A stretch of 64,000 nucleotides of DNA from Eledone cirrhosa (lineage: Eukaryota), in the NCBI GenBank assembly GCA_964016885.1, contig OZ024742.1, positions 343,852,001 through 343,916,000 of the forward strand, written 5' to 3'. Shown here one piece after another: positions 19,288 through 22,433 of this stretch. The notes below the pieces were generated by a model. It was not told where the DNA came from and made no database searches. It saw only the letters and a list, made by a program, of their open reading frames with translations. The first letter of the stretch is position 1. Every line of letters starts with the position of its first letter. Position numbers and translations under genes: made by a program.

Positions 19288-20465
19288 TAGCGAAAGAGTG
19301 AAGAATAACATGGTCAACAGTACAAAATCTGGCAGCTTAAAGATAACACCAAGAATACAGGAGAAGCTGTCAAAATTATCGGGAACAAAGGCCTACAGAA
19401 ATGGAATGTTCCACTGCGGACTTTGCAATAGGGAGCTGTTCCATATTTTAAAGTATGACAAAATGCTGCTTAACAGCAAAATAGAACGATCAATTTTCTG
19501 TAGGTACAAAACAGCTACTAAATTCGCAAATTTTAAACCAACATGATTCGATCCAACAATCCCATAATTCAAGCTGAACCACCCAGAGTCTACTATAATA
19601 ACTATACACCAACCCACTATTATTAACTGTCAACAAACCAACTAATCACTAAATCAACATCATAAACCTCCTAACCTTTCTTTCACTTACTTTCACTCTC
19701 TCTCCCTAAAGCCGTTTCACCTCTTCCCTTGTATCCTATCCTGTATCTCTTAACCTCTAACCTAACTTCTAATTTATTAATTTATCTTTTATATGTTATT
19801 TATCATTATATTCTTTCTCCCTACTCTAACCATCTGTGATTTAACCAATACAAATGTATATATTTAATATTTATTTTCATACTAATAATATTCCTACCCT
19901 CATCACATCTTTATACTTAAACTATAACTTTAACCGACATCACCACCACCACGACCACCACTATTTTCAACAATCATATTATGTTCATATATTTTTTTCA
20001 CGTATATATATTTTTTATTTATATATTTTTTATCATCTTCATTCTAACTTTATTATTTTTTCTTTTTCTTTCCTTATTATTGATGTTATTTGAATTCTCT
20101 GTAGTATAAATACAAATATCGAGTGTAATTTTGTCAATTATTCCGATGATTTGATTAAGCATACACTGTATTTCAGATTGAGTGACACAACTTCGAGTGA
20201 TTAGCAATCTTTAGACATCCTAATCAATGAAACAATTGTTAATACTGTAAATAAAACCCTTTTTGTACTGTTGACCATATTATTCTTCACTCTTTCACTA
20301 TTATTACTCCAAGATTAACCTGCATAGGAATTCCCGGGAACTCGCCACCTAACTAAGGAAACCTCTTGTTGAGTCAAGCAACGCCTTACGTTAAAACTAT
20401 CTACAATACGGCGTACTCAGAATCTTTAACTGGATTACTTATAACAATAATTTTATTATCCCATC
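19288..20465 (+). mobile_element. 5'-truncated PLE: inverted pLTR piece + GIY-YIG C-terminus + 3' pLTR
   Basis: 19288-19328 is the reverse complement of about 20260-20300; KAYRNGMFHCGLCNRELFHILKYDKMLLNSKIE..CRYK fits the CxLC..E..LLN..E...C PLE endonuclease tail. Confidence 0.8.
20139..20244 (+). ncRNA. Variant type I hammerhead (CCGATGA core, long stem II)
   Basis: TATT-CCGATGA-tTTGATTA...TAATCAAt-GAA-AC AATT GT-T-AATA. Confidence 0.65.
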
Positions 20466-21125
20466 ATATATATATATATATATATATATATATATATATA
20501 TATATATATATATATATATATATATATATATATAGAGAGAGAGAGAGAGAGAGAGAGAGAGAGAGAGAGAGAGAAAGAGAGAGGAGTGAAAGTCTACAGG
20601 AGGCAAAAGGAGCATAAATGAGATTAAAAAAGGTGAAAAACCAAAGATGAGAAAATTATTTCACCCTGCGTTCTACCTATCTTTGTTCGGTACAGTATTT
20701 AGGTTTATTTGGCATTCCACCCGGACTGGCATCCGGCCTTTTATGCTAGCTCTTCATAGTCTCAACATATATATATTATGGTAACTGTTCAGTCATTTTA
20801 CCCATTTGTATACACACACACACATATATATGTTTATTAAGAGAGAGAGAGAGAGAGAGAGAGAGAGAGAGAGAGAGAGATAGAGATAGATAGATAGATA
20901 GATAGATAGAGAGAGAGAGAGAGAGAGAGAGAGAGAGAGAGAGAGAGAGAGAGAGAGATTGGGAAGTTTGTTGTGACAACCACGTATCTACACTCCTGAG
21001 TTCTCCAGTGCCAAGGGACCCATCTAGGGAGCTGCTAATCTGAGGATTCTTTACGGACACGTAACGCTCTTATTTTATTTTTATTTTTACTTTATATATA
21101 TTAATAATTTCATTATCTTATCTCA

Positions 21126-21250
21126 AGTTCCGAGGATCTGCTCCATAATATTGTTTTATGTTACTTATCTTTCTCTGCACTAAATCAATAACGATCTTAC
21201 CATCGATTGATCCAGAAATATTATATGGAGTAGTGAAACAATTGTAAACT
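21126..21250 (+). ncRNA. Variant type I hammerhead (CCGAGGA core, long stem II)
   Basis: AGTT-CCGAGGA-tCTGCTCCATA...TATGGAGTAGt-GAA-AC AATT GT-A-AACT. Confidence 0.7.
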
Positions 21251-21480
21251 GACATTCTTATCCTCTCTTTTTTATATTAAACCGCACTTAATGTTGATAC
21301 TCTTTGACTAATGTTTTCTATGTGAGTTTGTGGTCTTGATTTGCTTAATTACTGTATATATATATATATATATATATATATATATATATATATATATATA
21401 TATATATATATATATATTTAATATAGAAAAGCGCTTCTACAGGACTAGAACTTTTTCATTCATGCGAAATCACCAGAAGG

Positions 21481-21529
21481 GCTTCCTGATGATTTTGCAT
21501 GAATGAAACAGTTCTAGTCCTGTAGAAGT
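21481..21529 (+). ncRNA. Type I hammerhead, family A (degenerate mirror copy at 21433-21480 -)
   Basis: GCTTC-CTGATGA-tTTTgcatGAAt-GAA-ACAG ttctagtc CTGT-A-GAAGT; stem I covaries with the 8380 and 55231 copies. Confidence 0.8.
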
Positions 21530-21642
21530 GTTTCTATATTAAACATTTATGCTCTGCTATGTATTGAGTACCTTACTTACTGTGGTTATCTCCGATTGAA
21601 CCCGGAATAATATATATATATATATATATATATATATATATA

Positions 21643-22433
21643 TTCATTAGTTAAGCAAAACAAGACCGCAAATTTCACAAGGAGGACATTATTAAAAGAT
21701 TGTCAACATATTTTAGTTTGATGTAAGGAATGTAGAGAATAATATTAATAATAATAATGTCCGTTTACAATTGTTTCGCTACTCCATATAATATTTCTGG
21801 ATCAGATGACTATATATCATTATTGATCTGGTTCAGTTGAACATAATTAACATATTTAAAAATAGAGCGGCTCATCGGAACTTCAAACGAATATAAATTA
21901 AAATAAGGAGAGATTGTTACATAATGTAATGTTCCATATATTGGTATTTCACTATCGTGTCCTGGTTGTATCAGTTGTCAGCCATAATCAAGCAGTATTC
22001 AACTGTCGAGGCTGCATTGTGTGAGATCTGCCTATGTGTAGATCTACCCATAGGCAGATCTCACACAACGAAGCCTCGATAGATGAATACTGCTTGATTA
22101 TGGCTGACAACTGATACAACCAGGACACGATAGTGAAATACCAATATATGGAACATTACATTATGTAACAATCTCTCCTTATTGTAATTTATATTCGTTT
22201 GAAGTTCCGATGAGCCGCTCTGTTTTTAAATATGTTAATTATTTTCAACTGTACCAGATCAATAATGATATATAGTCATCTGATCCAGAAATATTATATG
22301 GAGTAGCGAAACAATTGTAAACGGACATTATTATTATTAATATTATTATTATTCTCTACATTCCTTACATCAAACTAAAATATGTTGACAATCCTTGTGA
22401 AATTTGTGGCCTTGTTTTGCTTAACTAATGAAT
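21643..22433. mobile_element. About 790-bp near-perfect palindrome (PLE pLTR fold-back) with a hammerhead in each arm (21763-21881 -, 22204-22322 +)
   Basis: Arms read as reverse complements about TAGATCTA (22039-22046); GTT-CCGATGA-GCCGCTC...GAGTAGC-GAA-ACAATTGT-A-AAC. Confidence 0.85.

What the first reader, a model, noticed from the sequence alone, without database searches (positions are those of the whole stretch)
20139..22322. Variant hammerhead class: CCGANGA core, 80-100-nt stem II and ACAAUUGU stem III
Seen: every motif with palindromic stem III ACAATTGT (20139, 21126, both arms at 21763/22204) has C instead of U at core position 4. Each has a long stem II whose basal helix is kept with different sequences (TTGATTA/TAATCAA; CTGCTCCATA/TATGGAGTAG; GCCGCTC/GAGTAGC). 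The one at 20139 sits in the pLTR directly downstream of a PLE GIY-YIG. 12279 has the same long architecture with canonical CTGATGA. Inference: a conserved U4C, large-insert ribozyme subtype, possibly undescribed.
Basis: partly seen in the sequence, partly recalled or inferred. Interest (0 to 1): 0.75.

Follow-up and report, generated by a model that had tools for sequence, protein, structure and literature searches.

The report
Octopus-type transposon hammerheads: C4, long arms
These motifs are the hammerhead (predicted self-cutting RNA) ends of very abundant Penelope-like jumping genes; many families carry C instead of the usual U in the core and many carry a long folded arm, but the two traits occur independently, and both likely persist because the element needs only slow cutting.

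Summary
The four C4 motifs are real (4 matches, 0 in 100 shuffles). They are type I hammerheads in the terminal repeats of Hydra-clade Penelope-like retrotransposons. About 27,800 pattern matches with stem III ACAATTGT occur in this 3-Gb genome, over 10,400 with CCGA. The proposed coupled class does not hold. With 70-100-nt arms and ACAATTGT, CTGA (5,967) outnumbers CCGA (4,258), and a C4 family with a 20-nt arm (5,247 copies) has C in 99 of 100 listed copies. C4 is family-fixed: 97/100 in the 22207 family, 71/100 in the 20143 family. It toggles at least three times on the protein tree. The long arms are at least four non-alignable inserts; two of them show compensatory changes. Published Hydra hammerheads (26/26 rows) are all U4 with short arms, as are 44/45 calls in other animals' Hydra loci. 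CCGA is a known natural variant that cleaves in viroid-like RNAs. Element ends lie downstream of the cut site, so the template is likely uncut or circular, which would tolerate a slow ribozyme. Cleavage is untested. This scan reported both traits before, here and in other genomes. Verdict: new variant of a known kind.

The parts
19291..20465 (+). 5'-truncated Hydra-clade PLE insertion (my family FB80) between (CA)n/(TA)n and (TA)n
   Evidence: blastn to genome loci; ends 225 nt past the cut site at (TA)n
19291..19330 (-). Inverted short 3' terminus of the same element (copy of about 20260-20300)
   Evidence: reverse complement matches 20260-20300; reads end at 20301 in (TA)n
19324..19546 (+). 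Frameshifted C-terminus of GIY-YIG endonuclease (IWQLKDN..., CxxC..E...LLN...C)
   Evidence: BLASTP E 4e-6 to A. japonicus protein P0024
20139..20244 (+). Type I hammerhead: stem I TATT/AATA, core CCGATGA 20143-20149, 79-nt arm 20150-20228, GAAA, ACAATTGT 20232-20239, predicted cut after U20240
   Evidence: covariation in the family alignment
20989..21354 (+). Non-coding 3' fragment of a second Hydra PLE family (FA98), short terminus 108 nt past the cut
21126..21250 (+). Type I hammerhead: AGTT/AACT, core CCGAGGA, 98-nt arm, ACAATTGT, predicted cut after A21246
21644..22605 (.). Head-to-head insertion of family FA94: two pLTR fragments joined at 22042/22043 (305-bp inverted repeat 21738-22347); short terminus on -, long terminus on +, both in (TA)n
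21763..21881 (-). Type I hammerhead, core CCGATGA 21878-21872, 94-nt arm, predicted cut after 21766
22204..22322 (+). Type I hammerhead, core CCGATGA 22207-22213, 94-nt arm, predicted cut after A22319
12279..12400 (-). Long-arm U4 hammerhead of family F95u (CTGATGA, 95-nt arm, stem III ACGATCGT); comparison copy

Best explanation
The motifs are type I hammerheads in the terminal repeats of several Hydra-clade Penelope-like retrotransposon families, and they likely act as slow, pair-dependent self-cutters in which C4 is a tolerated core change and the long arm is a separately acquired folded module. Shown: location, family structure, counts, covariation, and the independence of C4 from arm length. 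Inferred steps: (1) A read-through transcript of a tandem or pLTR-flanked element carries two hammerheads. (2) The loopless palindrome ACAAUUGU pairs between the two copies to make helix III. (3) Cleavage after GUH, probably helped by the element protein, trims the RNA and may allow circularisation. (4) Reverse transcription starts 35-340 nt downstream of the cut site, so the template must be uncut or religated. Fast cutting is therefore not needed, and U4 and C4 can swap between lineages. (5) The long arm projects from helix II and is kept as a structure; its likeliest role is folding aid or protein contact.
For: Hydra diagnostics RWK/RWR, DKT, CxCX5C linker, CxxC/CxH and (TA)n targets are present in genome copies. 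Family-level C4: 97/100, 71/100, 99/100; U4 in the 11-12-nt, 90-nt and 95-nt families. At least 3 U/C changes on the RT+EN tree. Compensatory changes in stem I and the arm: 11 of 23 pairs and 12 of 22 pairs, above all 500 shuffles on covariation score and far above slid controls. Palindrome kept by a double change: ACGATCGT in 15 of 100 listed copies, 0 single intermediates. The 8-mer does not fold alone, but its duplex is -6.4 kcal/mol. Insertion ends fall in two classes downstream of the cut. A CCGA hammerhead cleaves in vitro at the predicted site in ZV1(-). An anole PLE hammerhead is protein-assisted and dispensable for insertion in vitro.
Against: No cleavage or expression data exist for any copy. 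The two papers that cite the PLMVd U4C study disagree on its effect: a considerable decrease versus not affected. All tested C4 precedents are type III with other helices. Covariation counts related copies, not independent events, and the FA94 family of 21130/22207 shows only 2 of 19 pairs with double changes, with no stable fold in the middle of the arm. Three of five window arms fold no better than shuffles. The ACGATCGT change is one event. The two motifs in the 305-bp palindrome would be buried in a long duplex if transcribed (inference).
Confidence: 0.6

Rival explanations
1. C4 families carry a catalytically dead or near-dead hammerhead that is kept only as a structural scaffold for binding the RT or positioning reverse transcription.
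For: Cleavage is not needed for insertion in vitro in an anole PLE, and no RNA-seq reads ended at its site. Insertion ends span the cut site. Most families also have a mismatch at the base of helix II. Metazoan PLE hammerheads are weak in vitro.
Against: In a sample chosen only by the 3' motif, 37 of 56 had an exact CYGANGA upstream. With positions 3-5 left free, nearly all listed copies read CCG or CTG. The cut-site base stays non-G, and the palindrome is kept by a double change. CCGA cleaves elsewhere.
Confidence: 0.2
2. C4 is positively favoured in this radiation as a brake on cleavage, or a bias to ligation, that preserves full-length or circular template; it arose repeatedly.
For: Parsimony needs 3 changes, readable as three gains from a U4 outgroup. 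C4 sublineages also occur in the 57-63-nt and 78-79-nt groups. C4 is absent from 26 published Hydra rows and from the pLTR calls of other animals' Hydra loci.
Against: One gain plus three reversions costs only one more step. U4 families are equally abundant. Outgroup state was assigned from the literature, not read from those proteins' own loci. No rates were measured.
Confidence: 0.13
3. One reading: the long arm makes a tertiary contact that rescues a U4C core, so C4, long arm and ACAAUUGU form one subtype.
For: All 4 C4 motifs in the window have long arms, and both traits are concentrated in one protein clade.
Against: Long arm with U4 gives 5,967 matches against 4,258 with C4. Short arm with C4 gives 6,226. 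The arms are at least four non-alignable sequences.
Confidence: 0.07

Closest known systems
Hydra-clade PLE hammerheads (Craig et al. 2021, PMC8557442, section 11 and File S2; includes Hydra-1_Obim from Octopus bimaculoides)
   Same: Same protein signatures, (TA)n targets, type I hammerhead near the 3' end, frequent U.U opposition at the base of helix II, short stem III ending GUH.
   Different: All 26 Hydra rows read CTGA with about 11-24 nt between the core halves. Here arms reach 57-98 nt, several families are fixed for CCGA, and stem III is a perfect loopless palindrome shared across families.
Minimal PLE hammerheads (Cervera and de la Pena 2014, PMC4209133)
   Same: pLTR location, palindromic short helix III, proposed dimer activity, many dispersed truncated copies, opposite-strand pairs.
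   Different: Helix II of 6-8 bp. The core variant described in the parts read is U3-A8, not C4; no CCGA core turned up in the one supplement file searched.
Natural CCGA (U4C) hammerheads of PLMVd, CtaHVd-LR1, zeta virus ZV1(-) and betaviroid-like RNAs (PMC3088659, PMC9608096, bioRxiv 10.64898/2026.09.16.752053)
   Same: Same core change; ZV1(-) cleaves in vitro at the predicted site.
   Different: Viroid-like RNAs, type III in ZV1 and the betaviroid-like RNAs, seen as variants or single strands. Here it is type I, DNA-encoded and the consensus of families with thousands of copies.
PLE-X1_sMoe hammerhead (Craig 2021 File S2, marked as deviating)
   Same: PLE hammerhead with an enlarged helix II/loop II (about 54 nt).
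   Different: Spike-moss EN-minus element, U4 core, no multi-helix covariation reported in the table.
Non-LTR retrozymes (PMC7229834; bioRxiv 10.64898/2026.07.22.740005)
   Same: The 12279 family appears as non-coding ~1-kb tandem units with one type I hammerhead each.
   Different: Longer units and a 93-97-nt arm. The four C4 motifs of the finding belong to protein-coding families.

Membership tests
Type I hammerhead ribozyme | Core CUGANGA ... GAAA ... UH | tested here: not met
   Position 4 is C in all four motifs; all other core positions match. CCGA is a recorded active variant, so this lowers 'canonical', not 'works like'.
Type I hammerhead ribozyme | Stems I, II, III around the core, stem I open | tested here: met
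   Stem I 3-4 bp and stem II present; covariation in stems I and II; stem III stable only as a duplex.
Type I hammerhead ribozyme | Site-specific self-cleavage after UH | not testable with these tools
   Needs biochemistry or RNA end mapping.
Type I hammerhead ribozyme | Loop I-loop II tertiary contact | not tested
   No contact was modelled; the long arm displaces the usual loop II.
Rfam hammerhead models | Match to a curated covariance model | tested here: not met
   No hammerhead family among 12 hits at E<=10 in 19900-22500, nor among the 150 of 190 hits shown for the window.
Hydra clade of PLEs | RWK motif and DKT in RT | tested here: met
   RWK/RWR and DKT in L169, L175, L177, L183; one FC81 copy reads DKT in L170. 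Tested on family relatives; the window copies lack RT.
Hydra clade of PLEs | CxCX5C linker; C-terminal GIY-YIG with CxxC and CxH around E and N; no CCHH | tested here: met
   Seen in EN regions of the families; the window fragment keeps CxxC..E..N..C.
Hydra clade of PLEs | Insertion into (TA)n; inverted 5'-truncated partner; two 3' termini | tested here: met
Hydra clade of PLEs | Phylogenetic placement among named Hydra references | tested here: inconclusive
   Named hits are an A. japonicus and a Hydra vulgaris protein, but published Hydra consensus proteins were not in the tree.
Neptune clade of PLEs | DKG motif, CX2-5CxxC linker, CCHH in EN | tested here: not met
   DKT and CxCX5C instead.

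The most novel reading that the evidence does not exclude
A cephalopod Hydra-PLE radiation has turned its hammerhead into a protein-gated switch. C4 lowers spontaneous cleavage, and the independently acquired 57-98-nt arms are docking domains for the element's RT/EN that trigger cutting or ligation only after reverse transcription has begun. Two arm types share a GAGU/(U,G)AGC internal loop. This would give a natural panel of thousands of variants for testing what PLE hammerheads do.
Probability: 0.2. Interest if true: 0.75.

Novelty: new variant of a known kind. Interest (0 to 1): 0.45.

Why it matters
The role of hammerheads in Penelope-like elements is open. This genome offers a natural two-by-two design in related, recently spread families: C4 or U4, short or long arm, all with the same helix III. 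That makes the question directly testable. It also shows that descriptor and Rfam searches requiring CUGA or a short helix II miss on the order of 20,000 motif matches here. It is not a new ribozyme class, and U4C activity has precedent.

Tried and rejected
(1) Coupling of C4 to the long arm or to ACAATTGT: rejected. (2) CpG decay as the source of the U4 copies: in the 22207 family CTG 2 vs CCA 4 of 100; in the 20143 family CTG 25 vs CCA 6 (p 0.0009, copies not independent), so U4 sublineages exist there. (3) C4 as a family-specific folding fix: predicted stem I probability rises with C4 in native-C4 long arms (29 up, 1 down of 69), but also in native-U4 long arms (21 up, 3 down of 47) and other animals (20 up, 9 down of 40), so it is generic. 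(4) Neptune assignment, my first reading: replaced by Hydra. (5) Viral contigs: 80 of 120+ pattern hits checked, 1 had minimal stems, taken as chance. (6) Sequencing runs: no RNA holder listed. RAD-seq read ends piling near CAATTG are likely restriction sites, not cleavage. (7) Pfam gave no family for the ORF or the fragment. (8) The EN-only tree left the base of the clade open (8 of 39 rows dropped as redundant or mis-paired). (9) Lunse et al. 2017 and Ambros and Flores 1998 are not held; they are known only through citing text, so C4 or long-arm variants in Lunse 2017 cannot be excluded. File 1 of the Cervera 2014 supplement was not searchable.

Full report
OBSERVATION. The pattern CCGANGA-N70..100-GAAACAATTGTH occurs 4 times in the window (20143+, 21130+, 21878-, 22207+) and 0 times in 100 shuffles. 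Each match has a 3-4-bp stem I, a paired base of stem II and a GUH site. The last two are the arms of one 305-bp inverted repeat (296 of 305 identical). The 12396- motif has CTGATGA, a 95-nt arm and ACGATCGT. Rfam gave no hammerhead hit.

WHAT THE ELEMENTS ARE. The window lies in a 3.0-Gb genome. It is likely an octopus, by inference from its repeats and from a published octopus Hydra element; I did not test this. A frameshifted GIY-YIG C-terminus lies about 600 nt upstream of 20143. Longer genome copies of the same families encode RT-EN proteins with RWK/RWR, DKT, a CxCX5C linker and CxxC/CxH. These are the features given for the Hydra clade in Craig et al. 2021 (section 11 read). A protein search returned 52 relatives at 30-39% identity; the two with species names are from Apostichopus japonicus and Hydra vulgaris. 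The window holds three truncated insertions in (TA)n: 19291-20465, about 20989-21354, and 21644-22605.

ABUNDANCE. GAAACAATTGTH occurs 56,824 times against 1,363 for the reversed control. With a 5' core, the counts by arm length are: 8-38 nt, CCGA 6,226 and CTGA 8,061; 39-69 nt, CYGA 3,253, of which 38 of the first 100 listed are CCGA; 70-100 nt, CCGA 4,258 and CTGA 5,967. Controls were 3-10 each. The sum, 27,765, includes some double counts from upstream core-like words. Tallies 'of 100' are my counts by eye of the first 100 listed matches on contig C1, and neighbouring inverted arms are not independent.

C4 IS FAMILY-FIXED BUT NOT TIED TO THE ARM. With positions 3-5 left free, the 22207 family (1,714 copies) reads CCG 88, TCG 5, CCA 4, CTG 2, CAG 1. 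The 20143 family (1,314) reads CCG 60, CTG 25, CCA 6, other 9; C at position 4 in 71. A 20-nt-arm family (5,247) reads CCG 97, CCA 1, GCG 1, CTG 1. In 56 motifs picked only by the 3' word, 37 had an exact core: long arms 6 C4 and 11 U4, short arms 16 C4 and 4 U4; 19 had none. The 12279 family (2,657) has ACAATTGT in 82 of 100, ACGATCGT in 15, other single changes in 3, and no single-step intermediates; its 9 sampled copies are all U4.

TREE. On RT+EN (23 rows: 15 from this genome, 8 outside; LG+G4; three rows only about 31% filled), 14 genome rows form a clade (100/100). It splits into [20-nt C4 + 94-98-nt C4] (99/97) and [90-nt U4 + 79-83-nt mixed] (100/100). The 11-nt U4 family falls among the outside proteins. 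At least 3 U/C changes are needed if outside rows are taken as U4, which I assigned. Three gains and one gain with three reversions differ by one step. No coding match was found upstream of the 57-63-nt or 93-97-nt U4 groups (0 of 24, 0 of 9), so they are not in the tree.

THE LONG ARM. Pairwise alignment against shuffles groups the inserts into at least four unrelated types: 78-83 nt, 94-98 nt, 93-97 nt, and 58-63 nt; the 90-nt type is only weakly like the first. For 26 of 41 distinct 78-83-nt motifs, chosen to span subfamilies, a structure I named had 92% of cells paired and 11 of 23 pairs with double changes; slid controls gave 27-38%. For 20 of 23 58-63-nt motifs: 90% and 12 of 22. Both structures were drawn from these sequences and the copies are related, so the numbers lean upward. 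In 16 motifs of the 94-98-nt family only the basal helix is well supported (2 of 19 pairs with double changes). By eye, the 78-83 and 58-63 types share a GAGU/(U,G)AGC internal loop.

OUTSIDE THIS GENOME. Craig 2021 File S2 lists 26 Hydra rows, all CTGA with short arms. Of 78 metagenome loci encoding Hydra-like proteins (the best 80 of 380 relatives, many redundant), 45 gave a hammerhead call: 44 CTGA and 1 CGGA, arms 10-30 nt; 33 gave none. One of them, L311, also holds a CCGAAGA motif behind a CCHH-type GIY-YIG of another PLE. So C4 is not unique to this lineage, though that is a single copy.

MECHANISM. Insertions end in (TA)n at two distances downstream of the cut site: about 58 and 222 nt (FB80), 43 and 207 (F20), 36 and 102 (F11), 100-137 and 280-345 (FA94). 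Reads agree for the short ends. In three full-length copies the ORF starts 210-350 nt after the cut. The template must therefore run through the cut site, either uncut or religated (inference). Frangieh 2024 found two internal RT start sites and a protein-assisted hammerhead that is dispensable for insertion in vitro (passages). The loopless palindrome does not fold alone but forms a duplex, and the dimer model is established for PLE hammerheads (Cervera 2014, parts 1-2 of 4; review passages). I therefore favour slow, dimer-dependent cleavage with C4 tolerated (0.6) over a dead scaffold (0.2), selected attenuation (0.13) and a coupled class (0.07).

LITERATURE ON U4C. Perreault 2011 (passages and section 8) cites a viroid U4C that lowers activity in vitro but stays infectious. 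PMC9608096 (passages) reports CCGA variants and says the PLMVd change did not affect cleavage. bioRxiv 2026.09.16.752053 (passages) shows that ZV1(-), which has CCGA, cleaves at the predicted site. Searches found no paper on C4 or 57-98-nt arms in PLE hammerheads. PMC13725137's 'long helix II' is 6-8 bp (passages). Also seen: PMC7229834 and PMC6155905 (passages) and bioRxiv 2026.07.22.740005 (part 1 of 5). Lunse 2017 and Ambros 1998 could not be read.

EARLIER SCAN NOTES. Unreviewed notes report long-armed Hydra hammerheads and C4 families in this and other genomes. They agree with what I measured here but are not independent evidence.

VERDICT. Real, abundant, and apparently not described in the papers searched, but a variant of known PLE hammerheads rather than a new class. 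Interest 0.45.

Noticed in passing
window 575-4738 (+): Non-LTR retrotransposon with an ORF1-like frame, an apurinic endonuclease and RT (L1/Tx1-like by recalled motifs), split by a frameshift near 3521-3573.
   Followed up: no
window 51640-51670 (-) and 52000-52030 (+): Inverted pair of short canonical hammerheads (CTGACGA, 14-nt arm, palindromic ACTAGT) in another repeat family, also present in several fetched loci.
   Followed up: partly
window 21410-21550: Very high-copy hairpin repeat between the second and third PLE insertions; MITE-like, not identified.
   Followed up: no
L047 and window 12100-12476: The 12279 family occurs as non-coding tandem units of about 1 kb with one long-arm U4 hammerhead each, retrozyme-like.
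   Followed up: partly
L311:1564-1610: A well-formed CCGAAGA type I hammerhead behind a CCHH-type GIY-YIG (Neptune-like) in a metagenome contig of another organism; single copy.
   Followed up: partly
L063, L403, L405 and similar 58-nt-arm motifs: Basal helix GATGTC/GATATC resembles that of published Hydra-1_Obim (gatgtcta/tagatat), suggesting the long arm grew inside a short hairpin of that type.
   Followed up: no
L078, L087, L393-L416 (61-63-nt family): GAGGATCTGCTCC upstream of the core resembles the core-plus-arm start of the 98-nt family, possibly a relic of a duplicated 5' core half.
   Followed up: no
L177:1238-4339: Full-length element whose 5' pLTR begins only 7 nt upstream of the hammerhead core, right after (TA)n; consistent with more-than-unit reverse transcription through the cut site.
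   Followed up: partly
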